From Candidatus Nomurabacteria bacterium (GTDB lineage: Bacteria; Patescibacteriota; Minisyncoccia; Phycocordibacterales; UBA9973): a DNA stretch of 64,000 nucleotides. The position numbers and the translations under genes are program-made. Shown in pieces: positions 21,866 to 62,382 of the stretch; positions within the stretch are counted from its first letter, which is position 1; the number at the start of each line of letters is the position of its first letter. The stretch spans positions 174,839 to 238,838 of the forward strand of contig JAHFNH010000001.1 in NCBI GenBank assembly GCA_023267435.1, read 5' to 3'. Under the pieces are notes generated by a model. The model did no database searches, was not told where the DNA came from, and saw nothing but the letters and a program-made list of their open reading frames with translations.

Positions 21866-22513
21866 GTGAAAAAAGAAATAATTCAAACATTAAAAATAAT
21901 TACTCTCGGCACGTTATTCATTACCGGTGTATCTTTTGCTTCACCAGCAAATCCTCCTAGTAATAATGCGCCAACTCCCATAAATGTAGGCGGAGCTTCT
22001 CAGGTGAAAATCGGAGGATTGGGTACTGGGCCATTGGCTGTTTTCGGTCTTTCACAAATGTATGGCAATGTGAACATTAAAAATGATTTAGATAATACAG
22101 CGGGAAATTTATATGTATCGGGAAATATCGGCGTCGGAATTGCATCGCCTACAGAAAAGCTTGATGTAGCCGGAAATATAAAAATAAGTTCTGTCGCTCA
22201 TCCGACAGTTGCTTCTAATGCTCAAGTTTGCGCTGACACGACAGGTAAAATAGTTTCTTGCGGTAATAAATGCGGTTCGGCTCAAGGTATAACCGGTTCT
22301 AAACCTACGACAAATCTTTGCGCAGTCGGAACACCTCACACTGTTTATTCTGGTTATCCTGGCTGTACTCCAGGTGTCTATGATGCTTCTTGTCCTGATA
22401 CCGGTCTTCCTGCTCAAGGAAATACATATTCACCCAATGATACAAATCAATGGCTCTGGACTTGTGAAGGTGCGGGAGTTCCTGTTAGTTGTAATTCATT
22501 TAGACCTATATAA
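21866..22513 (+). CDS. Secreted protein, paralog 1 of the conserved-leader family (GTG start)
   Basis: Leader MKKEIIQTLKIITLG. Motifs PINVGG...GPLAVFG and LYVSGNIGVGIASPTEKLDVAGNIKIS. Confidence 0.6.
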   Translation: MKKEIIQTLKIITLGTLFITGVSFASPANPPSNNAPTPINVGGASQVKIGGLGTGPLAVFGLSQMYGNVNIKNDLDNTAGNLYVSGNIGVGIASPTEKLDVAGNIKISSVAHPTVASNAQVCADTTGKIVSCGNKCGSAQGITGSKPTTNLCAVGTPHTVYSGYPGCTPGVYDASCPDTGLPAQGNTYSPNDTNQWLWTCEGAGVPVSCNSFRPI

Positions 22514-22519
22514 ATTTAT

Positions 22520-23956
22520 ATGAAAAAAGATTTAATTCAAACACTAAAAATAATTACTCTCAGCTTGATGCTCAGCGCAGGCTTTGCTTTGGCCTGGACA
22601 GCGCCGACAAGTTCACCGACAGCTAATGATGCTACACCTCCGATAAATGTCAGTGGTATTGTTCAATTAAAAGACGGAGCTCTAGCCACTGGACCATTAT
22701 TGGTCAGTGGTCCTACCACGATTCACGGCAATGTAAGTATCTTGGGTGATACTTCTACTCCTCCTACCGGAGGCGGAAGTAGAACTGCAATGAAATTTTT
22801 AAATAATATTTTTGCATCATTTTTAAACACAGCTTTTGCTGTCGGAAATCAACCGACAACCCCGACTTTAACCGAAGTCACTCCTGTCGGCGTGAATGGT
22901 GTGACTTCCGACTCTACTCCGAATTATACTTTTAATTCAAACGTAGCGGGAACAATTTCCTTTACTGGTGGATGTACTAGTTCTACTTCCAGTGTTCCTT
23001 ATGGTAATACGACTGTTACTTTAAATCATTTATATAATGGTGTGTATAGTTGTACAGTTCAATTAACTACGACAGATGGCACTCTTTCAAATTTACTTTA
23101 CTTTGATTTTGAGATTCAAAACAATCCATCTCCGACACCAACACCTCTACCAACCAGTGATCTATATGTATCGGGAAGGGTTGGTGTCGGTGTTCCAGTA
23201 CCTACAGAAAAGCTTGATGTATCCGGTAATGTTAAAATTGCTTCTCTTCAAAATACAGCTGTTAAATTAGTGCGCATTTGCGCTGATCAATTTGGAAAAA
23301 TAATTCTTTGCCCAAGCGGATCTTCATCATCAATGGGTGGAACTTTATTTCCATCGTATAATATGACAAATGGAGATGGTACTTGGACTGTGCCTGACGG
23401 AGTTTTTCGTATTCATGTTAAAGTTTCCGGTGCCGGCGGCGGTGGTGGTGGCGCTTATGATCATTCGGGTGGTGCTGCCGGCGGTGGCGGTGGTGGCGGT
23501 GGATTTTCAGAAGGAGATTTAAATGTCGTTCCAGGGGAAACTTATTTTTATCATGTTGGAAAGGGTGGTGCTAGTGGTACTACTATCAATTCAACTGCTC
23601 CTGGTCAAAATGGCGGTAATGGTGAGTCTAGTAATTTTGATTACTTTTTTTCAGCTAGTGGCGGTGCGGGTGGAAAAGCAAGCTATCATTTAGGTGGCGG
23701 CGGTGGAGGTGGAATAACTATCCCTGGTGTTGGTGGTGTGTTTGGGACAGGAACAAATGCTAACGGAACATCAGGAGGAACTGGTGGATATAATATAAAT
23801 CAAGCAGGTAGTGGTGGTAATTCCGGTGGCTCTGGCATAGGAGGAAGTGGCGGTAATGGCGAAGGACCTCATTGTACCAGTTATAGCGGTTGTGATTCTG
23901 CCAATCCAGGTGCTAATGGTGGTATTGTTATAACTTGGAATAATTTAATAAATTAA
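22520..23956 (+). CDS. Secreted glycine-rich protein, paralog 2
   Basis: Leader MKKDLIQTLKIITLS. The C-terminal ~200 aa carry runs of 6-8 consecutive Gly (GAGGGGGGAY, AAGGGGGGGGF) and end IVITWNN. Confidence 0.6.
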   Translation: MKKDLIQTLKIITLSLMLSAGFALAWTAPTSSPTANDATPPINVSGIVQLKDGALATGPLLVSGPTTIHGNVSILGDTSTPPTGGGSRTAMKFLNNIFASFLNTAFAVGNQPTTPTLTEVTPVGVNGVTSDSTPNYTFNSNVAGTISFTGGCTSSTSSVPYGNTTVTLNHLYNGVYSCTVQLTTTDGTLSNLLYFDFEIQNNPSPTPTPLPTSDLYVSGRVGVGVPVPTEKLDVSGNVKIASLQNTAVKLVRICADQFGKIILCPSGSSSSMGGTLFPSYNMTNGDGTWTVPDGVFRIHVKVSGAGGGGGGAYDHSGGAAGGGGGGGGFSEGDLNVVPGETYFYHVGKGGASGTTINSTAPGQNGGNGESSNFDYFFSASGGAGGKASYHLGGGGGGGITIPGVGGVFGTGTNANGTSGGTGGYNINQAGSGGNSGGSGIGGSGGNGEGPHCTSYSGCDSANPGANGGIVITWNNLIN

Positions 23957-24004
23957 TTGTCGCGCTTTAATGGACAGTTGCGCGACACGATTTTGTAAAA
24001 TCGC

Positions 24005-25177
24005 ATGAATAAAAACATAATTCAAACACTTAAAATAATTTCATTCGGACTAGTACTCAGTGCTGGATTTGCTTTGGCTCAAATTTTTACCGGACCATTT
24101 TCAAATCCTCCTTCAGTAAACATTCCCGCTCCGATCAATGATAGTTCTTATGGACAGATTAAATCCGGAGGCTTGGGAGTGGGACCACTGACAGTTTTTG
24201 GAGACTCAGCTTTTTATGGCAAACAAAGTATTCTCACAAGCGGTAATTTATACGCATCAAACAAAGCAGGAGTTGGAATTTTACCGACAGCATCATCAGA
24301 AAATCTTGAAATAGCTAATACCGCTGGTTTAAATGGCCAAGGTGATATAAAAAATTACATGAAGACCAGTTCGCTTTCTCTTGCCAGCAACCCTTCTCCA
24401 TCTAAGATAAGAGAAGTTTGTTCAGATAGCTCTGGGAAACTTGTCTTGTGCGCTATTACAGCTGCGACTTCTGTTGCGCATGGATCTAAGACTTGGAATA
24501 TCAATGGCGGTTATTCATTCACTGTACCTCACGGCATTTCAAGTTTAGTTATTGAGACATGGGGCGCTGGTGCCGGCGGTGCCGGCGGAACTGGTGCTTA
24601 TGGTTCTGATGGTATAGGTGTCGGTGGTAACGGTGGCGGTGGAGGTGGATATGCTAAAACGACTATTACCGTAGCTCCAAATCAAGTCATGAATATAACT
24701 GTCGGAGAAAGAGGTGTCTATGGCACTGGGAGTGGTTCTGATGGCTTCGGTGCTACTTCGGGTGGTTTTGGTACTGACAGTTTTGTTTTGTCTAATGGAA
24801 ATTTAATATTGAAAGCTTATGGAGGACAAGGACAGTCCCCTGGTACAGGTGTGACGTCTCCAGGTGGAGGATTCCTTGCTGGTCCAGGTATTACTGGTAC
24901 AAATGGTCAGGCTGGTTTACCCGCAGGAACAGGTACTGGTTTTGGCACTTATGGCGGTACGGGAGGATATGGTGCAAATGGTGGTGCGGGTGGCAGTGGC
25001 GGTGGGTCTCCAACTGGTAATAGTGGCAATGGCTCTGATGGTTTGTGGGGTAATTCTGGTATTGCACCAGGCGGAGGCGGTCAAGGCGGAGGCGGTGCTG
25101 ATGCAAAAGCACTTTATGGTTATTCCGGTGGAGGTGGAGGATATGGTGCTGACGGACAAGTTAGAATTACTTGGTAA
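24005..25177 (+). CDS. Secreted glycine-rich protein, paralog 3
   Basis: Leader MNKNIIQTLKIISFG. Gly runs (GGNGGGGGGYAK) and the ending VRITW. Confidence 0.6.
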   Translation: MNKNIIQTLKIISFGLVLSAGFALAQIFTGPFSNPPSVNIPAPINDSSYGQIKSGGLGVGPLTVFGDSAFYGKQSILTSGNLYASNKAGVGILPTASSENLEIANTAGLNGQGDIKNYMKTSSLSLASNPSPSKIREVCSDSSGKLVLCAITAATSVAHGSKTWNINGGYSFTVPHGISSLVIETWGAGAGGAGGTGAYGSDGIGVGGNGGGGGGYAKTTITVAPNQVMNITVGERGVYGTGSGSDGFGATSGGFGTDSFVLSNGNLILKAYGGQGQSPGTGVTSPGGGFLAGPGITGTNGQAGLPAGTGTGFGTYGGTGGYGANGGAGGSGGGSPTGNSGNGSDGLWGNSGIAPGGGGQGGGGADAKALYGYSGGGGGYGADGQVRITW

Positions 25178-25223
25178 TTTTAATTAGTTTGTTTTTAATA
25201 TTAAAGTTTTTGTAATAAATAAA

Positions 25224-25502
25224 ATGAATAAAAAGAAAATTTATATAATTTCTATTGTCGTAATAGTTGTCATTGCTCTGGCTTTGGTTGGTTTTTATTA
25301 TTATAAAAATGTCAATAAACCACTTACTGAACAAGACAAGATTAATATTCTAGATCAGCTTAGTAAAGAATCAAAAAGCAATTACAACAACCAGCAAAAG
25401 GCTATTATTTTAAATAATTTATCCAGTTCTTCCAAAGATAGCAATGTCAGTAAGCTTACTAAAGAACAAAAATTGCAGCTTATGCAGTCGGCTGCGCAGT
25501 AA
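25224..25502 (+). CDS. Small single-TM protein
   Basis: 92 aa with the helix IYIISIVVIVVIALALVGFYYY. Confidence 0.4.
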   Translation: MNKKKIYIISIVVIVVIALALVGFYYYKNVNKPLTEQDKINILDQLSKESKSNYNNQQKAIILNNLSSSSKDSNVSKLTKEQKLQLMQSAAQ

Positions 25503-25507
25503 TCTCT

Positions 25508-26260
25508 ATGTTGAAGAAAAAAATAGTCATAGGCAATTGGAAAATGAATCCACCTGCTAAAAAAGAGGCGGAAAGCATTTTCAAGTCTGTTTTGAAAAAT
25601 TTAAATCCAAAAAGAAAAACTGAAGTGGTTATTTGTCCGCCGTTTTTATACTTGGAAAGTTTAAAAAAATTATCCAAAAAAGTTTCCTTGGGAGCGCAAG
25701 ATGTTTTTTGGGAGGAGAAGGGTGCTTACACTGGGGAAGTTTCTGCTGATATGATTTATAATATCGGCGCCAGATATGTGATATTGGGGCACTCTGAAAG
25801 ACGAGCATTAGGTGAATCAAATATTGATGTAAATAAAAAAATAAAACAATCATTTTCTGTGGGTTTGATTCCTGTTGTGTGCGTGGGAGAAAGTGTACGC
25901 GATGAAAATCATGAATATCTTAATTTTGTAAAAACTCAAGTTGAAGAATGTTTGTTTGGAGTCTCTAAGAATTTTATTTCAAAAGTAATCATTGCATATG
26001 AACCAGTCTGGGCTATCGGCAAGAATGCTGTACGAGAAGCAACGTCAGAAGAATTTCGGGAGATGAGCATTTTTATCAAGAAAATTTTGAGCGATAAATT
26101 CGGAGCGAAAACGATAGAACAGATCAGAATAATTTACGGCGGATCAGTTCATCCAGAAAATGCGTTAGGATTTTTACAGGAAGGCGCTGATGGTTTTCTA
26201 GCAGGACGCGATAGTTTGGACCCTAAAAAGTTTTCAGAGATTATAAAAATATGTAGCTAA
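25508..26260 (+). CDS. tpiA: Triosephosphate isomerase
   Basis: TIM motifs GNWKMN, GHSERR and VCVGES. Confidence 0.9.
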   Translation: MLKKKIVIGNWKMNPPAKKEAESIFKSVLKNLNPKRKTEVVICPPFLYLESLKKLSKKVSLGAQDVFWEEKGAYTGEVSADMIYNIGARYVILGHSERRALGESNIDVNKKIKQSFSVGLIPVVCVGESVRDENHEYLNFVKTQVEECLFGVSKNFISKVIIAYEPVWAIGKNAVREATSEEFREMSIFIKKILSDKFGAKTIEQIRIIYGGSVHPENALGFLQEGADGFLAGRDSLDPKKFSEIIKICS

Positions 26261-26344
26261 ACTTATTGAAATTTTTTCCCACTGCGCCCTTCTCGGAATA
26301 CCGAGTGAGACCCTCGCGGATAAAAAATTTCAATAAGTTTAGCT
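26255..26344. repeat. 23-bp perfect inverted repeat enclosing a 44-nt GC-rich core; fills the whole tpiA-pgk spacer
   Basis: Arms agctaaacttattgaaatttttt (26255-26277) and aaaaaatttcaataagtttagct (26322-26344). The core contains the hairpin ctcgg-aata-ccgag. Confidence 0.6.
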
Positions 26345-26351
26345 TTAAATT

Positions 26352-27425
26352 ATGAAGTCAATTAAACAAGTAAAAAATATAAAAGGCAAAGTTGTGCTAG
26401 TACGTGTTGATTTCAATGTGCCGATCAAAGACGGCAAAATAGAGGATCCTTTCAGGATAAAAAAAGCTCTACCCACTATTGATTTCTTACATAAGAAAGG
26501 GGCGAAAATAATTTTAATAACGCATTTGGGTAAAGACGGCAGTGCTAGTCTGGAACCAGTAATTAAATCTTTTTTTAAAATATCTAAATACAAAAAATCA
26601 GAAATAAGTTTTTTTGAGAATGTTCGAAAGTTTCCAGGGGAAGAAAAGAATGATCCAACTTTTACTCGCAAGCTCGCTTCTCTTGGTGATGTTTATGTAA
26701 ACGATGCATTTTCCGTGTCACACCGGGCGCATGCTTCAGTGGTAGGCATTCCAAAATATTTGCCATCTTATGCTGGTTTTCAGCTTGAAGCTGAAATAAA
26801 AAATCTTTCTAAAGCTTTGAATCCTAAACACCCATTTTTATTTATTTTAGGTGGAGCAAAATTTTCTACTAAGATGCCTTTGATTAAGAAATATTTAAAA
26901 CTCGCAGATTATTGTTTTATCGGCGGTGCTCTTTTGAATGATTTTTTGAAAGCTAAAGGTTATGAGGTTGGCAAGTCACTCATTGATAATTCGAATTATG
27001 GTATTGAAAAGATTTTAAAAAATAAAAAATTAATATTACCTGTAGATGTAGTGGTAAAAAGTAGTGGTAAGTTAATTAATAAAGGAGTCACTGAAGTCTT
27101 AAAAGATGAAATTATTTTAGATATTGGTAGTGAATCGATAAAAATGATTGAGCCTTACATAAAAAAATCCAAACTTATTCTTTGGAATGGTCCGCTTGGA
27201 AAATACGAGGCAGGCGGAGGCGGAGCAACAAAAAAAGTATTGAAATTTGTCGCGAAATCTAAAGCGGAAAGCATTATTGGCGGGGGAGATACAGTTGAAT
27301 TAATTTCAGAAATGAAAATGGAAAAAGATTTTTCTTTTGTTTCCACTGGCGGTGGCGCAACGTTAGACTTCTTGGCGAACGGCACTCTGCCGGGAATTAA
27401 AGCTTTAGAAAATTCTAAAAAATAA
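26352..27425 (+). CDS. pgk: Phosphoglycerate kinase (short form)
   Basis: N-terminal VRVDFNVP and a C-terminal nucleotide-binding region GGGA...GGGD. Confidence 0.9.
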   Translation: MKSIKQVKNIKGKVVLVRVDFNVPIKDGKIEDPFRIKKALPTIDFLHKKGAKIILITHLGKDGSASLEPVIKSFFKISKYKKSEISFFENVRKFPGEEKNDPTFTRKLASLGDVYVNDAFSVSHRAHASVVGIPKYLPSYAGFQLEAEIKNLSKALNPKHPFLFILGGAKFSTKMPLIKKYLKLADYCFIGGALLNDFLKAKGYEVGKSLIDNSNYGIEKILKNKKLILPVDVVVKSSGKLINKGVTEVLKDEIILDIGSESIKMIEPYIKKSKLILWNGPLGKYEAGGGGATKKVLKFVAKSKAESIIGGGDTVELISEMKMEKDFSFVSTGGGATLDFLANGTLPGIKALENSKK

Positions 27426-27513
27426 AATATAGATTTTTTTTGACAAAATACTATAAAAGTAGTAGATTGAGGATAAAGAAAAATAGTTCTAAACAATTTA
27501 AAAAACTACCCAC

Positions 27514-29059: not shown

Positions 29060-30856
29060 ATGAAAAGGTATTCCGAGCTAATGCAAAATCTTTTAGAAAA
29101 ACGGGGAATTACTGATCCAGAGCAAGCTGAGATTTTTTTGAATCCGAGTTATGAACGAGATCTATATGATCCATTTTTAATGCGTGATATGGAGAAAGCT
29201 TGCGTCAGAATTTTTGAGGCGATGGAAGCCAAAGAAAAAATTGTGATTTATGCCGATTATGATTGTGATGGCATTCCTGGGGCGGTTATTTTGCAAGATC
29301 TATTTAAGAAAATTAATTATCCAAATTTCGAAGTTTACCCCAACACTAAAATTAAAGAAAAAAATAATTTTGGTGTTGGGGTTTATATACCCCAAAGAAA
29401 TTCCGAAGGATATGGTTTGAATTTGTCTGCCATTAAACAATTTGCGGATAATGATGTAAAACTTTTAATTACCGTTGATCTTGGCATCACGGCGGTGGCT
29501 GAAGTTGCTCAAGCGAAAGTTGATGATATTGATGTCATTATTACCGACCACCATTTACCTAAAATTGCTTCGCCTCATGAAATTTCTTCCTCCTGTGCCC
29601 TTCCCGGAGTACCGGGTGGGACCCTCGGAGATAAGAAATTTCATGAGACTCTGCTTTTACCGCACGCTTATGCTATTTTAAATCCAAAAGTAGATGATTA
29701 CCCTGAAAAAATGTTATGTGGCGCAGGTGTGGCATTTAAGCTCGTGCAAGCATTTGTAAAAAAATATGGGGAATATTTTAAAATAACAGACGGCTGGGAA
29801 AAGTGGCTTTTAGATATGGCAGGCATGGCGACGCTTTCAGATATGGTGCCACTGTTGGGAGAGAATCGTGCGATTGCTAGTTTTGGAATAAAAGTTTTAA
29901 GAAAATCTCCTCGTCCGGGCTTGATGAAACTTTTAACTAAAATGAATATCGATCAAAGATATCTTACCGAAGATGACGTCGGTTTTATGATCGCTCCACG
30001 ATTAAATGCCGCTTCTCGAATGGATGATCCGATGCGTGCTTTTGAACTGTTAGCAACGAATGATGCAGCCCTAGCTGATACTCTGGCGAAACATCTTACA
30101 AAAATAAATGACGAAAGAAAATTAATCGTGGCCGGCATTATGCGTGAGGTGAATAAAAAATTTGGCAATAGTTCTTTGCATGAAATGAAAGAAGTTGTGG
30201 TAATAGGTAATCCAGCTTGGCGCGTGGGCGTCTTGGGTCTCGTAGCAGGTAAAATATCAGATGAATATAAGAAACCGGTTTTTGTTTGGGGTAGAGATGA
30301 GAATGATTGTATAAAAGGTTCTTGTCGTTCCGATGGTTCAGTATCAGTCGTGGAATTGATGACGGAAACAAAAGATCACTTTATAGAATTCGGTGGACAT
30401 GAATTGGCAGGCGGTTTTACTGCCCTAAATGAAAAAATACATTTTCTAGAAGAAACATTATCTGTCGCTTATGGAAAAGTAAAACGAGATAAAAAAGAAA
30501 CAGAAATATCTTTCGATGTAAAATCAGACTTAAGTATTGTAAATATGAAGAGTTGGAGAGAATTAGAAAAAATAGCTCCGTTTGGTTTGGAGAATCCTAA
30601 ACCAGTTTTCTTTTTTGAAGGAGCAAAGATTGAGAACTTAAAAAGTTTCGGCAAAAATAATTCCGGCGAGCATTTGGAAATAATTTTTTCTGACGCCAGC
30701 AAGAATAAAATTAAAGCTATTTCTTTTTTCTCCACGATTGATTCCTTTAAAGTTCCTTTGGCTCTGGGATTGAGCGTAAATTTATTGGCGACTTTTGATT
30801 TGTCTCATTTCGCTGGCAGAGAAGAGCTACGATTAAGAATTGTTGATATACTATAA
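29060..30856 (+). CDS. recJ: Single-stranded-DNA-specific exonuclease RecJ (DHH/DHHA1)
   Basis: YADYDCDGIPG and ITDHH are DHH motifs. The ORF track starts at 28988; the Met at 29060 is preferred. Confidence 0.85.
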   Translation: MKRYSELMQNLLEKRGITDPEQAEIFLNPSYERDLYDPFLMRDMEKACVRIFEAMEAKEKIVIYADYDCDGIPGAVILQDLFKKINYPNFEVYPNTKIKEKNNFGVGVYIPQRNSEGYGLNLSAIKQFADNDVKLLITVDLGITAVAEVAQAKVDDIDVIITDHHLPKIASPHEISSSCALPGVPGGTLGDKKFHETLLLPHAYAILNPKVDDYPEKMLCGAGVAFKLVQAFVKKYGEYFKITDGWEKWLLDMAGMATLSDMVPLLGENRAIASFGIKVLRKSPRPGLMKLLTKMNIDQRYLTEDDVGFMIAPRLNAASRMDDPMRAFELLATNDAALADTLAKHLTKINDERKLIVAGIMREVNKKFGNSSLHEMKEVVVIGNPAWRVGVLGLVAGKISDEYKKPVFVWGRDENDCIKGSCRSDGSVSVVELMTETKDHFIEFGGHELAGGFTALNEKIHFLEETLSVAYGKVKRDKKETEISFDVKSDLSIVNMKSWRELEKIAPFGLENPKPVFFFEGAKIENLKSFGKNNSGEHLEIIFSDASKNKIKAISFFSTIDSFKVPLALGLSVNLLATFDLSHFAGREELRLRIVDIL

Positions 30857-42153: not shown

Positions 42154-42193
42154 TAACAAAAACTTGTTAATCTTTAACAAGAAATAGTTAATC

Positions 42194-42230
42194 AAAAAAT
42201 CCTCCGCCACTGGCGGAGGATTTTTTGTTG
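42194..42230. terminator. Intrinsic terminator (CCTCCGCCA...TGGCGGAGG family)
   Basis: Stem atcctccgccac/tggcggaggat flanked by A- and T-runs. Confidence 0.7.
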
Positions 42231-48947: not shown

Positions 48948-48970
48948 ATTTCAAGTATAACATAACAAAT

Positions 48971-49075
48971 CTCCCCCTTGATAAGGGGGAGTGCCTGAAA
49001 GGCGAGGGGGTAATTTTCAAAAAATCACCACTCTCCAAACCCCTCCTCAACAAGGAGGGGAATTATTTGATTTTG
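48971..49075 (+). promoter_or_regulatory. GC-rich leader with alternative hairpins upstream of adk
   Basis: Hairpin ctccccctt-gat-aagggggag (48971-48991) and hairpin cccctcct-caaca-aggagggg (49040-49060). Segment cgagggggta (49003-49012) can pair with either 5' arm. A weak U-tract follows the second hairpin. Confidence 0.4.
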
Positions 49076-50489: not shown

Positions 50490-51263
50490 ATGGGGATAAT
50501 AATTAAAACACCAGCAGAAATAGAAAAGATAAGAGAAGCCAGTAAGCGATTGGCTTTTGTTTTGGACGAAGTAAAAAAAATAGTTAAGCCTGGAGTTTCC
50601 ACTAAAGAGCTTGATAAATATGCAGAGAAATTAATCAGGGAACAGGGTGATTCTCCCGCTTTCCTTAATTATCGTCCTGTTGGGGCAAAAAAACCTTTTC
50701 CAGCGTCATTGTGCGTTTCAGTGAATGAAGAAGTGGTACATGGCATTCCAAAGGAAGATAAAATATTACAAGAGGGCGACATTGTTTGCATTGATTTGGG
50801 GATTAATCATAAAGGTGTCTTTGCTGATATGGCTTACACTGTGCCGGTAGGGGAAGTTTCATCTGCATCTAAAAAACTTATGGATACCACACAGCGTAGT
50901 TTGATGGTAGGTATCGATGCGGCGCGTGGAGGTGGCAGGGTTGGAGATATTGGTTATGCGATTGAAAGTTTTGTTAAAAAACAAGGAAGGTTTGGTATCG
51001 TGGAAGTTTTAGCGGGGCATGGAGTCGGACGTGAGATACATGAGGATCCATATATTCCAAATTTTGGCAAAAAGGGGACAGGGGCGAAGCTAGTACCAGG
51101 AATGGTGATAGCCATCGAGCCGATGTTAAACAATGGCACCAAGAATGTAGTAATTGGAAAAGATGATTGGACCATATCAACTGCCGACAAAAAACGTAGC
51201 GCGCATTTCGAGCATACTATTTTAATTACCGAAGATGAACCAGAAATACTAACGATCCAATAA
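50490..51263 (+). CDS. map: Methionine aminopeptidase type I
   Basis: Metal ligands in DIVCIDLG, HGVGREIHE and EHT. Confidence 0.9.
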   Translation: MGIIIKTPAEIEKIREASKRLAFVLDEVKKIVKPGVSTKELDKYAEKLIREQGDSPAFLNYRPVGAKKPFPASLCVSVNEEVVHGIPKEDKILQEGDIVCIDLGINHKGVFADMAYTVPVGEVSSASKKLMDTTQRSLMVGIDAARGGGRVGDIGYAIESFVKKQGRFGIVEVLAGHGVGREIHEDPYIPNFGKKGTGAKLVPGMVIAIEPMLNNGTKNVVIGKDDWTISTADKKRSAHFEHTILITEDEPEILTIQ

Positions 51264-51267
51264 AAAT

Positions 51268-51302
51268 AAAAAATCCTCCACCAGATGGTGGAGGATTTTT
51301 TA
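51268..51302. terminator. Intrinsic terminator (CCTCCACCA...TGGTGGAGG variant)
   Basis: Stem atcctccaccag/tggtggaggat plus a T-run. Confidence 0.7.
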
Positions 51303-51318
51303 TTTTTATTATATTGTT

Positions 51319-55514: not shown

Positions 55515-55550
55515 TAAAAAATCCTCCGCCAGCTGGCGGAGGATTTTTAT
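55515..55550. terminator. Intrinsic terminator (CCTCCGCCA...TGGCGGAGG family)
   Basis: Stem atcctccgccagc/tggcggaggat plus a T-run. Confidence 0.7.
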
Positions 55551-58253: not shown

Positions 58254-58292
58254 TAAAAACCCTCCGCCAAACTGGCGGAGGGTTTTTAGTTT
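58254..58292. terminator. Intrinsic terminator (CCTCCGCCA...TGGCGGAGG family)
   Basis: Stem accctccgccaa/tggcggagggt plus a T-run. Confidence 0.7.
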
Positions 58293-61874: not shown

Positions 61875-61887
61875 TAACAGAATATTG

Positions 61888-62266
61888 GGACTGCAAGGCA
61901 TAGACAGTAAGCCATTTGCTATTGATGCATGCCGAGTATGGACGTAATCTCGTTAAAATTCGTTCAAATGTTAATTGCAAAATTGACTTCAAAGCAATCT
62001 CCATACTTCGGTATGAAAGATCTTGCTCTAGCCTTCGCGTAAGCCTCGGCTAGTGTCTCTCTCATAGACTTCCGATATATGAGTCGAGGCATAATATTAT
62101 CGGGATAGGGAAGAGAATGTCCTGACTCTTCTCCGAAACAAAAGGAATCGGTTCTGAAATATTTCGTGCACTTAAGAATTTCAGAATTTAAACAAAAAAG
62201 TGTACTAAGCATGTAGATTTCCTTGCAACTACTTTCTGCACTGGGGTTCAATTCCCCACAGTTCCA
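61888..62266 (+). ncRNA. ssrA: Transfer-messenger RNA (tmRNA, ssrA)
   Basis: Starts 13 nt after smpB. The 5' gggacug pairs with the 3' caguucc, giving a G3.U70 wobble with discriminator A. T-arm ugggg-uucaauu-cccca lies at 62242-62258. gcaugccgag (61927-61936) is shared with E. coli tmRNA. The tag ORF from GCA at 61977 reads AKLTSKQSPYFGMKDLALAFA and stops at 62040. Confidence 0.75.
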
Positions 62267-62382
62267 CAAATTCATTTAGCTATTATAATATAAAGGTATT
62301 TATATATTGACTTTTGTGTTTATTTATGATACAATTGCTTGTAAATAAGGATAACGTTGTTCTTATAAAAAAGGAGGTCTAA

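What the first reader, a model, noticed from the sequence alone, without database searches (positions are those of the whole stretch)
26255..26344. 23-bp perfect inverted repeat spanning the entire tpiA-pgk spacer around a GC-rich 44-nt core
The 5' arm starts inside the tpiA stop codon. The 3' arm ends 7 nt before the pgk ATG. The core, cccactgcgcccttctcggaataccgagtgagaccctcgcggat, is about 60% GC in a roughly 30% GC genome and contains the hairpin ctcgg-aata-ccgag. As RNA, a 23-bp perfect duplex is an ideal RNase III substrate. That could set differential stability or stoichiometry of the tpiA and pgk messages. Alternatively it is a small inserted palindromic element.
Basis: seen in the sequence. 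Interest (0 to 1): 0.5.

Follow-up and report, generated by a model that had tools for sequence, protein, structure and literature searches.

The report
Mobile GC-core hairpin repeat element
The hairpin between tpiA and pgk is one copy of a small palindromic repeat scattered through Nomurabacteria-like (CPR) genomes, between genes and in frame inside essential genes, so it is an inserted repeat and not a regulator built for these two genes.

Summary
A perfect 23-bp inverted repeat (26255-26277 / 26322-26344) encloses a 44-nt, 64% GC core and fills the tpiA-pgk spacer.

It is not specific to this spacer. A second copy lies 3.3 kb away, in frame inside recJ, as an exact 87-nt insertion that orthologs lack. 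I found 54 unique copies with the fixed pattern, plus eight more diverged ones, in Nomurabacteria/Paceibacterota MAGs and metagenomes. They sit in stop-to-start spacers and in frame in UvrD, UvrC, PolA, RecG, RecJ, RsmA, RluD and others, read in all three frames.

Relatives with 79-82% identical Pgk have tpiA and pgk overlapping with no spacer. Other relatives carry a different GC-core hairpin at the same junction.

The anatomy is unusual:
- The centre is conserved and structured, with two helices showing strong covariation.
- The inner arms are A/T runs.
- The outer arms are locus-specific, near-perfect inverted repeats that evolve in concert.
- There is no target-site duplication, no conserved terminal repeat and no Rfam match.
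- About 85-90% of copies are co-oriented with their host genes.

Best reading: a previously undescribed family of palindromic elements resembling those of Rickettsia. RNase III cleavage of the stem is possible as a side effect but was not tested.

The parts
25508..26260 (+). tpiA (context). Its last sense codon AGC and its TAA stop lie inside the left arm of the element.
   Evidence: ORF list. Pfam TIM, E = 6e-76, covering residues 5-248 of 250.
26255..26277 (+). Copy 1, left arm, 23 nt. The outer 12 nt (26255-26266) are specific to this locus. The inner 11 nt, TGAAATTTTTT (26267-26277), are shared with copy 2 and are A/T-run-like in the whole family.
26278..26321 (+). Copy 1, conserved GC-rich core. 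P2 is 26279-26282 (CCAC) with 26316-26319 (GCGG) and has one A.C. The 5' internal-loop strand UGCG is 26283-26286. P2b is 26287-26289 (CCC) with 26307-26309 (GAG). P3 is 26292-26296 (CTCGG) with 26301-26305 (CCGAG), loop AATA at 26297-26300. The 3' internal-loop strand ACCCUC is 26310-26315.
   Evidence: Alignment A2 and pair counts: 97.6% of cells paired, 64 cells changed on both sides, 0/500 shuffles reach the observed score. CM R1 scores this copy 79.5 bits.
26322..26344 (+). Copy 1, right arm, 23 nt, exact reverse complement of the left arm. It ends 7 nt before the pgk ATG.
26267..26332 (+). The 66-nt unit shared by copy 1 and copy 2: TGAAATTTYTT + 44-nt core + AARAAATTTCA.
   Evidence: Pairwise alignment. 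66 nt is also the net insertion in RsmA.
26352..27425 (+). pgk (context). No promoter-like or terminator-like site lies between tpiA and pgk.
29574..29647 (+). Copy 2, inside recJ, sense strand, in frame. Arms are CTCATGAAATTTCTT (29574-29588) and AAGAAATTTCATGAG (29633-29647), 15 bp perfect. The core is 29589-29632. An imperfect hairpin extends over 29561-29658.
   Evidence: CM score 80.7 bits.
29579..29665 (+). Approximate extent of the 87-nt (29-codon) net insertion in recJ relative to orthologs that lack it. It encodes ...EISSSCALPGVPGGTLGDKKFHETLLLPH and lies directly after the catalytic DHH motif.
   Evidence: The stretch from TDHH to ...NP is 144 nt in the window and 57 nt in L072 and L073. 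Solved RecJ 8y30 has 4 residues where the window has 33.
29060..30856 (+). recJ, the host gene of copy 2. The probable start is the ATG at 29060, judged from the ortholog alignment.
   Evidence: Pfam DHH, DHHA1 and RecJ_OB. Alignment A3.

Best explanation
The spacer hairpin is an insertion of a small, non-coding, palindromic repeat element. The element belongs to a dispersed family in Nomurabacteria/Paceibacterota (CPR) genomes.

Anatomy. The unit is a roughly 45-nt GC-rich core with three stacked helices (P2, P2b, P3) and a conserved asymmetric internal loop (UGCG / ACCCUC). The core is flanked by A/T-run inner arms (about 66 nt in all), and then by outer arms that are near-perfect inverted repeats and mostly differ from locus to locus.

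Behaviour. The family behaves like Rickettsia palindromic elements. Copies persist where they do little harm: in the tiny stop-to-start spacers of compact operons, and in frame in tolerant loops of housekeeping proteins, where they are read through.

At this locus (inferred). The element split an ancestrally overlapping, translationally coupled tpiA-pgk pair. It now supplies tpiA's last codon and its stop, and leaves the pgk ATG 7 nt beyond the foot of the stem. Both genes are probably still co-transcribed. The stem brings the stop and start codons back together in space, which may be why the insertion is tolerated.

How it spreads (inferred, not shown). The core is recognised as a folded single strand by an unidentified factor acting in trans. 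The outer arms are then made or kept complementary by a DNA-level process, such as intrastrand template switching or fold-back copying of one flank onto the other.
For: Shown:
(1) A second copy lies in the same window inside recJ, with compensatory differences in P3, P2 and the arms.
(2) 21 genome loci and 50 metagenome loci, all CPR where named, give 54 unique copies. One MAG holds 5 copies. A covariance model adds eight more diverged copies, including a sister subfamily.
(3) 24 copies lie in long ORFs of at least 10 unrelated protein families. They are read in all three frames and are never interrupted by a stop codon.
(4) Empty sites exist. tpiA and pgk overlap in L073 and in the P0004 contig. 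recJ in L072 and L073 lacks exactly 87 nt. RsmA in L028 lacks exactly 66 nt. Solved RecJ has 4 residues where the window has 33.
(5) Helices P2 and P3 covary: 97.6% of cells paired, 64 cells changed on both sides, 0/500 shuffles reach the observed score.
(6) In UvrD orthologs the core is 95% identical while flanking third-codon positions are 61% identical. A copy's own outer arms are 87% complementary, against 60% when arms are paired across orthologs.
(7) No promoter-like or terminator-like site lies between tpiA and pgk.
(8) The same permissive sites (tpiA-pgk junction, recJ, UvrD, RsmA, PolA linker) carry different GC-core hairpin families in different genomes.
(9) In RsmA the outer left arm encodes the conserved host residues N-L-D, and the right arm is its inverted copy. 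L022 carries the whole hairpin inverted in place.
Against: No transposase, target-site duplication or conserved terminal repeat was found, so mobility is inferred from distribution only.

I found no pair of near-identical genomes with and without a copy, so the insertion event and the origin of the arms are not resolved. Net insertion lengths vary (66, about 60-66, 87, about 108 nt). An arms-only hairpin exists in a PolA ortholog (L075), which equally fits loss of a core or insertion of a core into an existing hairpin.

The very high core conservation, the sense-orientation bias (22:2 in ORFs, 13:3 between co-directional genes) and the strand-asymmetric mismatch spectrum could instead mean the core has a cellular function.

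Copies were found with a fixed pattern, which inflates the apparent conservation of the core.
Confidence: 0.85

Rival explanations
1. A dedicated RNase III processing site. The 23-bp duplex evolved to be cut in the tpiA-pgk transcript and to set different stabilities for the two halves.
For: The stem is a perfect 23-bp duplex of suitable length on a probably co-transcribed spacer. Neisseria CREE/Correia hairpins bind RNase III and are cleaved or protected by it (PMC2649163).
Against: Relatives have no spacer at all, or an unrelated hairpin, at this junction. The same element sits in frame inside essential ORFs, where obligatory cleavage would destroy the message. Stem length and sequence vary from 8 to 28 bp between copies. 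No data on cleavage exist.
Confidence: 0.08
2. A functional cis-module that was spread or retained because the cell uses it. Examples would be a binding site for a nucleic-acid-binding protein, or a structured RNA or single-stranded-DNA signal acting on the strand complementary to the host mRNA.
For: The core is 95% identical where neutral sites are 61% identical. Covariation keeps P2 and P3 paired. The internal loop UGCG / ACCC(U/A)C is conserved even in the sister subfamily. Arm mismatches are 46 A.C/C.A against 5 G.T/T.G, which means wobble-compatible on the minus strand, and 56 of 58 hairpins are more stable on the minus strand. Orientation is strongly biased.
Against: Positions are not conserved between relatives, and sites are interchangeable between unrelated families. 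Only 2 copies occur in 64 kb. Many mismatches are inherited within subfamilies, so independent events are few. Copies with perfect arms still differ by 4-6 kcal/mol between strands, which is a property of the core alone. Structural constraint is also expected for a selfish element whose hairpin is needed for its own propagation, as in yeast mitochondrial GC clusters (PMC4478555).
Confidence: 0.12
3. An intrinsic terminator or attenuator between tpiA and pgk.
For: The hairpin is very stable. Some intergenic copies in one MAG look like terminator stems (AAAAGCCCC...GGGGCTTTT) split by the core.
Against: No T-tract follows the stem (CTTTAAATTATG), and the scan finds no terminator-like site here. 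pgk has no promoter of its own in the spacer. Copies occur inside ORFs.
Confidence: 0.03
4. A known structured RNA gene (ribozyme, sRNA or riboswitch) that happens to lie in the spacer.
For: The core is compact, GC-rich and has covarying helices.
Against: No Rfam family reaches its threshold. The sub-threshold hits are generic long-hairpin and microRNA models. Copies lie within coding sequence in three frames. Flank-motif copies are not within any Rfam RNA gene.
Confidence: 0.02

Closest known systems
Rickettsia palindromic elements (RPEs)
   Same: Both are short, non-autonomous palindromic repeats in a reduced, AT-rich genome. Both have several families. Both insert between genes and, unusually often, in frame into unrelated housekeeping genes, where they are translated as extra loop peptides (PMC10969869; here).
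   Different: The phylum differs (CPR/Patescibacteria). This element is smaller (a 66-nt unit, 60-100 nt with arms, against about 100-150 bp). In RPEs each family encodes a conserved peptide (PMC10969869), whereas here all three frames are used. The conserved part here is a GC-rich structured centre, and the outer inverted repeats are locus-specific. Sequence relatedness to RPEs was not tested.
Neisseria Correia repeat enclosed elements (CREE / NEMIS)
   Same: Both have inverted repeats around a conserved core, lie in spacers of co-transcribed genes and fold as RNA hairpins.
   Different: From my own knowledge, CREE have conserved 26-bp terminal repeats, a TA duplication and an IHF site. Here the terminal repeats are not conserved between copies, there is no duplication, and many copies lie in frame within ORFs.
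Palindromic GC clusters of yeast and other mitochondrial genomes
   Same: Both are GC-rich hairpin elements of about 40-60 nt scattered in a very AT-rich genome. In both the hairpin is under constraint, several families merge or replace one another, and the mobility mechanism is unknown (PMC4478555).
   Different: Those are organellar and eukaryotic, mostly intergenic, and flanked by a dinucleotide target duplication (PMC4478555). Here there is no duplication, there are long AT-rich locus-specific arms, and the hosts are bacteria.
REP/BIME elements mobilised by RAYT (HUH) transposases, and IS200/IS605-derived palindromic elements
   Same: Both are hairpin-based with no terminal inverted repeats and no target duplication. 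Strand asymmetry and orientation bias are expected for single-stranded-DNA mechanisms. This rests on my own knowledge and is a lead, not a test.
   Different: REPs are 20-40 nt, strictly extragenic, carry a conserved GTAG head and co-occur with a RAYT gene. None of these was seen here, and the RAYT gene was not searched for.
Classical MITEs
   Same: Both are small, non-coding, multi-copy and palindromic overall.
   Different: The defining conserved terminal inverted repeats and the target-site duplication were tested and are absent.

Membership tests
Classical MITE | Terminal inverted repeats conserved among copies (the transposase binding sites) | tested here: not met
   The outermost arms differ from copy to copy. 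Only the centre and the inner A/T run are shared. One subclass shares a longer arm consensus, AGC-TTC-GCTTCTTCCAATTTTT.
Classical MITE | Target-site duplication flanking each copy | tested here: not met
   The longest direct match between the two flanks averages 3.82 nt, against 3.73 +/- 0.15 in cross-copy controls.
Classical MITE | Small, non-coding, many dispersed copies | tested here: met
   Copies are 60-100 nt. There are 54 unique copies plus eight diverged ones at unrelated loci, and 5 in one MAG.
Classical MITE | A parent autonomous IS with the same ends | not tested
   No transposase was looked for genome-wide. Viral and phage collections hold no genuine copy.
Rickettsia palindromic elements (RPE-like class) | Palindromic repeat inserted in frame into unrelated protein-coding genes without disrupting them | tested here: met
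   24 copies lie in uninterrupted ORFs of at least 10 protein families. The insertion is exactly 87 nt in RecJ and 66 nt in RsmA.
Rickettsia palindromic elements (RPE-like class) | Each family encodes one conserved peptide (single reading phase) | tested here: not met
   All three sense frames are used (CALPGVPGGTLG, SSLRPSRSTEWDPRE, RPAPFSEYRVGPSDRK), and two copies are antisense.
Rickettsia palindromic elements (RPE-like class) | Sequence homology to RPE-1 to RPE-10, in the genus Rickettsia | not tested
   No RPE sequences were available in the tools. The hosts here are CPR MAGs.
Correia / CREE | Conserved 26-bp terminal repeats, TA duplication, IHF site | tested here: not met
   There are no conserved termini and no duplication. 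The IHF site was not examined.
Correia / CREE | The RNA hairpin is bound or cleaved by RNase III | not testable with these tools
   This needs RNA-end mapping or in-vitro cleavage.
REP / RAYT | Strictly extragenic, 20-40 nt, GTAG head, cognate RAYT gene | tested here: not met
   Almost half of the copies are intragenic, the unit is 66 nt, and I saw no GTAG head in the alignment. The RAYT gene was not searched for.
Rho-independent terminator | GC-rich stem, short loop, followed by a T-tract | tested here: not met
   No terminator-like site occurs in 25400-27500, and the tail after the stem is CTTTAAATT.
Any Rfam RNA family | Reaches the family's gathering score | tested here: not met
   The best hit is 31.8 bits against a threshold of 50 (tp2). 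The rest are microRNA hairpin models far below threshold. Across the whole window only tmRNA passes.

The most novel reading that the evidence does not exclude
The conserved core may be a folded single-strand module (the strand complementary to the host mRNA, judging by the wobble pattern) that is recognised by an as yet unknown structure-specific enzyme. On this reading it is copied into new sites by a hairpin-dependent mechanism that manufactures its own arms: after the core is copied, the self-complementary A/T run lets the new strand fold back and copy the neighbouring host sequence in inverted orientation. That would be a mode of transposition without terminal repeats or target duplication. 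It would explain why each copy has private, initially perfect arms, and why CPR housekeeping proteins carry so many GC-rich loop insertions.
Probability: 0.2. Interest if true: 0.8.

Novelty: new variant of a known kind. Interest (0 to 1): 0.55.

Why it matters
CPR/Patescibacteria have tiny, compact genomes and are thought to be streamlined. Even so, this family, and at least seven other GC-rich hairpin insert types seen in passing, have colonised stop-to-start spacers and the coding sequence of core replication and repair genes (PolA, UvrD, UvrC, RecJ, RecG), apparently without inactivating them.

This matters in four ways:
- It gives a second, independent example of the Rickettsia phenomenon of palindromic elements remodelling proteins in frame.
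- It explains many odd GC-rich "loop insertions" and unexpected spacers in CPR gene models, which helps annotation and alignment-based phylogenomics.
- It offers a natural system, with many orthologous filled and empty sites, for working out how hairpin elements without terminal repeats or target duplications move, and how long perfect palindromes are made and maintained.
- For this locus specifically, it warns against reading a regulatory purpose into a conspicuous hairpin.

Tried and rejected
- **Rfam.** I searched the spacer with permissive thresholds and the whole window at gathering thresholds. Nothing relevant was found.
- **Host RNA gene.** I tested whether copies with the recurring flanks AGCTYC...TTCGCT sit inside a conserved RNA gene. 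They do not; only unrelated tRNAs lie nearby.
- **Target-site duplication.** None was found. The apparent duplicates at the two window copies (AAAATATG/AAATTATG and CCTCATG/CCGCACG) are not better than chance in AT-rich sequence.
- **Recent empty site.** I searched for near-identical homologs of the PolA host with 28-bp perfect arms. The nearest homolog is only about 80% identical.
- **Census of proteins carrying the encoded peptide.** The first query was too short. The HMMER search of 1.84 billion representatives gave only 4 weak hits and was underpowered for a 34-aa query.
- **Viral and phage collections.** The only hit is the same contig as L050, which I had already excluded because its P3 cannot pair.
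- **Structure prediction of RecJ.** I replaced this by sequence mapping onto solved RecJ.
- **Constant 66-nt insertion.** The idea that the net insertion is always 66 nt, with arms merely overwritten host sequence, is rejected as a general rule because lengths vary.
- **Homology with the other families.** The FLGSSEGGQP/SRVLGSPG families are not detected by the covariance model of this family, so I make no claim of homology.
- **Literature.** I found no report of such elements in CPR, Patescibacteria or Parcubacteria.
Full report
**1. The observation**

The sequence is as described. Positions 26255-26277 (AGCTAAACTTATTGAAATTTTTT) and 26322-26344 are exact reverse complements, 23 of 23 bases. 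This 23-mer occurs nowhere else in the 64-kb window even with 3 mismatches allowed, and none is expected in shuffles.

The 44 nt between the arms are 64% G+C in a window of 36.2% G+C, and they contain CTCGG-AATA-CCGAG. As RNA, the 111-nt region folds at -39.4 kcal/mol (z = -7.7) on the plus strand and -49.1 kcal/mol (z = -10.9) on the minus strand.

The flanking ORFs are triosephosphate isomerase (25508-26260) and phosphoglycerate kinase (26352-27425) by Pfam. One detail needs correcting. The left arm starts at tpiA's last sense codon (AGC), and the TAA stop is bases 4-6 of the arm. The right arm ends 7 nt before the pgk ATG, as stated.

**2. It is a repeated element, not a feature of this spacer**

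A scan for GC-rich islands found a second island at 29579-29642. It has the same 44-nt core as a diverged copy. The differences are compensatory: CTCGG/CCGAG becomes CCCGG/CCGGG, CCAC/GCGG becomes CTCC/GGAG, and one T-A pair in the arm becomes C-G. This second copy lies inside recJ (Pfam DHH, DHHA1, RecJ_OB), on the sense strand and in frame.

A degenerate pattern for the core found 21 loci in the species-representative genome collection. All are candidate-phyla-radiation MAGs labelled Nomurabacteria, Paceibacterota or Patescibacteria. Some carry a Saccharibacteria label. One MAG holds five copies. The same approach found 50 metagenome loci. After removing duplicates there are 54 unique copies.

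A covariance model built from these copies finds only the two copies in the window. In the other loci it finds eight more diverged copies, including a sister subfamily. No Rfam family matches. I found no genuine copy on viral or phage sequences and no report in the searchable literature.

**3. Anatomy of the family**

All copies share a core: P2 (4 bp) - UGCG - P2b (CCC/GGG) - UU/U - P3 (5 bp, tetraloop ANUA) - ACCCUC - P2'.

On an ungapped alignment of 49 copies, 97.6% of cells are paired and 64 cells have changes on both sides. P2 occurs as UA, CG, GC or AU at its first pair, and P3 as UA or CG at its second. No shuffle out of 500 reaches the observed covariation score, and sliding the pairing partner by one column drops pairing to about 54%.

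The diverged copies were not selected by my pattern, and they extend the picture. P3 can be CTCAG/CTGAG or can be replaced by a longer stem, and P2 can be AGTT/AACT. The sister subfamily keeps only T(G/T)CGCCCT...GGGGACCC(T/A)C. So the conserved heart of the element is the asymmetric internal loop plus the CCC/GGG helix.

Outside P2 there is a short variable internal loop, then an A/T run (AAAATTTTT / AAAAATTTT). Beyond that are outer arms that are near-perfect inverted repeats but mostly have unrelated sequences in different copies. Of the 54 copies, 39 have at least 15 paired bases, 21 have at least 20, and 22 have perfect arms of at least 15 bp (up to 28 bp).

In one subclass the arms are related to one another (AGC-TTC-GCTTCTTCCAATTTTT...). 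There the whole ~100-nt hairpin looks like the repeated unit. In the other copies only about 66 nt are shared, and this is also what the two window copies share (26267-26332 and 29578-29643).

**4. Where copies sit**

Twenty-four copies lie in long uninterrupted ORFs: 22 sense and 2 antisense. The hosts are UvrD/PcrA, UvrC (two sites), an RluD-type pseudouridine synthase, an FAD-linked oxidase, cysteine desulfurase, RsmA/KsgA, DNA polymerase I, a SAM methyltransferase, RecG and RecJ. I assigned these by reading the sequences, with Pfam confirmation for the window genes.

The element is read in all three sense frames. It is therefore a nucleotide-level element and not a protein motif. Two of the three antisense frames are also open, so stop codons do not explain the orientation bias.

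The remaining copies mostly fill the short spacer between the stop codon of one gene and the start codon of the next. The hairpin typically starts within 30 nt of the stop and ends 2-25 nt before the start. Between co-directional genes, 13 copies are co-oriented with the genes and 3 are opposite.

**5. Empty sites**

- **tpiA-pgk.** Gene order around pgk is conserved in the closest available relatives. In L073 (Pgk 79% identical) and in the P0004 contig (82%), tpiA and pgk overlap and there is no spacer. In L072 (85%) and L074 (79%) the junction holds a different GC-rich core. Each has its own long inverted arms, and in L072 the left arm again covers the last tpiA codons and the stop.
- **recJ.** L072 and L073 have 57 nt between TDHH and ...NP, and the window has 144 nt, an insertion of exactly 87 nt (29 codons). 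Solved RecJ structures align in two blocks that break at this point, with 4 residues where the window has 33. L074 has an unrelated-looking 87-nt hairpin at the same codon.
- **RsmA.** The occupied gene has exactly 22 codons (66 nt) more than an empty ortholog.
- **Hotspots.** The same RsmA site, the UvrD site and the PolA linker carry other GC-rich insert families in other genomes. The simplest explanation is that few sites tolerate insertions, so they are hit repeatedly.

**6.

The fallback idea, a small inserted palindromic element, is supported.

The scan finds no promoter-like or terminator-like site between the two genes. They are therefore probably co-transcribed through the hairpin, and a 23-bp perfect duplex could be cut by RNase III as a by-product, as reported for Neisseria CREE (PMC2649163). 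That remains untested. Copies inside essential ORFs argue that cleavage cannot be obligatory.

**7. Most likely mechanism**

*Shown:* this is a dispersed, structured repeat that inserts without disrupting reading frames. It has no target-site duplication (3.82 nt against 3.73 +/- 0.15 in controls) and no conserved termini.

*Shown:* in UvrD orthologs the core is 95% identical while third-codon positions in the flanking gene are 61% identical. The caveat is that about half of the core positions were fixed by my search pattern. In the same orthologs each copy's outer arms are 87% complementary to each other. They are only 60% complementary when paired across orthologs, and each arm is about 60% identical between orthologs. 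So the two arms evolve in concert.

*Shown:* in RsmA the outer left arm encodes the conserved host residues N-L-D in their normal place. Its inverted copy on the right occupies positions that are ordinary host residues in the empty ortholog. In the window copy and in L072, the left arm contains the end of tpiA. In L022 the whole hairpin, including its asymmetric mismatch, is inverted in place. In one PolA ortholog the arms exist as a 20-bp hairpin with an AAA loop and no core.

*Inferred:* the core with its short A/T arms is the unit that spreads. It is recognised as a folded single strand by an unidentified factor. The outer arms are then produced or maintained by a DNA-level process, such as intrastrand template switching or fold-back copying. 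Such a process copies one flank onto the other and keeps the arms Watson-Crick complementary, which fits the near absence of G-U intermediates in the pair counts (1 of 588 cells).

I put about 40% on this account of the arms. The alternatives are insertion of cores into pre-existing hairpin loops, or compensatory selection. Variable net insertion lengths (66, about 60-66, 87, about 108 nt) show that no single simple rule fits all copies.

*Inferred for this locus:* the element split an ancestral overlapping gene pair. The stem brings tpiA's stop codon and the pgk start codon to within a few nucleotides of each other at its foot, which may preserve translational coupling.

**8. An unexplained asymmetry**

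Mismatches in the arms are 46 A.C or C.A, 5 G.T or T.G, and 17 of other types, written on the strand that carries TGCGCCC. On the complementary strand they would therefore be G.U or G.T wobbles. In addition, 56 of 58 hairpins are more stable on that complementary strand, and the subfamily that includes window copy 1 has an A.C in P2.

Many of these mismatches are inherited within subfamilies, and copies with perfect arms still differ by 4-6 kcal/mol because of the core. I therefore estimate only about a dozen independent events. Together with the roughly 85-90% co-orientation with host genes, this hints that the strand complementary to the mRNA is the one that must fold. That would fit a single-stranded-DNA intermediate better than a function in the host mRNA. 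G.T-specific repair acting on hairpins of the other strand could give the same pattern, so I leave this open.

**9. Comparison with what is known, and verdict**

The element works like Rickettsia palindromic elements, with several families and frequent in-frame insertions into unrelated genes (PMC10969869). It resembles the GC-rich palindromic clusters of AT-rich yeast mitochondrial DNA, whose hairpins are also constrained and whose mobility is also unexplained (PMC4478555).

It is not a classical MITE, a CREE or a REP. The defining features of those families were tested and not met: conserved terminal repeats, target duplication and strictly extragenic location. It is not a terminator or any Rfam family.

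I class it as a new variant of a known kind: an undescribed family of RPE-like elements in CPR bacteria with an unusual architecture of conserved centre and private arms. For the finding as written, the hairpin is real but ordinary in purpose, being an inserted repeat. The family it belongs to is moderately interesting in its own right.

Noticed in passing
L072:5840-5935 and L074:5895-6000: The orthologous tpiA-pgk junctions of two relatives hold a different GC-core hairpin family (core ...GCTCGGCCCGTCGGCC... / ...GCTCGCGCCGTCGCGC...) with its own 18-22-bp arms. The same core type is inserted in frame in RsmA of L048.
   Followed up: partly
L074:8427-8520 (recJ), and PolA orthologs P0211, P0220, P0229, P0240: A third insert family encoding ...FLGSSEGGQP(D/G)QL... 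occupies exactly the recJ codon that holds copy 2 in the window, and is also 87 nt. It recurs in the PolA linker of other genomes.
   Followed up: partly
PolA linker: L045:1340-1520, L075, L076, L077, and proteins P0121-P0240: The linker after the 5'-3' exonuclease domain of PolA is a hotspot. Orthologs carry at least seven different GC-rich insert types. One ortholog (L075) has only the two arms as a 20-bp hairpin with an AAA loop. The shortest version (L077) still has a 10-bp perfect GC hairpin.
   Followed up: partly
L001, L059, L060, L048 (UvrD), L022 (RsmA), P0177 (PolA): Another repeated in-frame insert, encoding ...LERTLGRSDGDGQRKFSAENFRGE..., lies right next to the family-1 copy in UvrD and also occurs in RsmA and PolA. 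In the L022 RsmA copy the arm mismatches are G.T on the gene's sense strand, the opposite of family 1.
   Followed up: no
window 48968-49070: An intergenic region between divergent genes holds two short GC-rich hairpins (CTCCCCCTT-GAT-AAGGGGGAG and CCCCTCCT-CAACA-AGGAGGGG). They resemble the small SPL..GGE-type inserts seen in frame in RsmA (L007) and PolA orthologs.
   Followed up: no
window 42193-42227, 51251-51318, 55517-55548, 58254-58288: Four terminator-like palindromes share nearly the same stem (AAAAATCCTCCGCCA / TGGCGGAGGATTTTT). They may be a repeated terminator module and not independent terminators.
   Followed up: no
window 29258-29305 (recJ residues about 91-106 from the ATG at 29060): The window's RecJ has a second lineage-specific extra segment (VYPNTKIKEKNNFGVG). 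It is absent from orthologs and from solved RecJ, and it is AT-rich, unlike the GC-core elements. The RecJ of L072 has yet another private insertion (GVSNFLPAELATLKQSSSAKLLTPLSL).
   Followed up: no
window 22500-25180: There are tandem genes for glycine-rich secreted-looking proteins with long GGx repeats; the ORF at 24005-25177 is one. These account for most of the strong GC islands upstream of tpiA. The syntenic gene in L072 hits Pfam Gly_rich_2.
   Followed up: no
window 61887-62269: A tmRNA gene with tag peptide AKLTSKQSPYFGMKDLALAFA. It is the only Rfam or ARAGORN hit in the window, and no tRNA genes occur in the 64 kb.
   Followed up: no
L022:8428-8487: In one genome the UvrD copy is present as a complete in-place inversion of the hairpin, including the asymmetric mismatch, and the ORF is still open. 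Recombination between the arms can therefore flip the element.
   Followed up: partly
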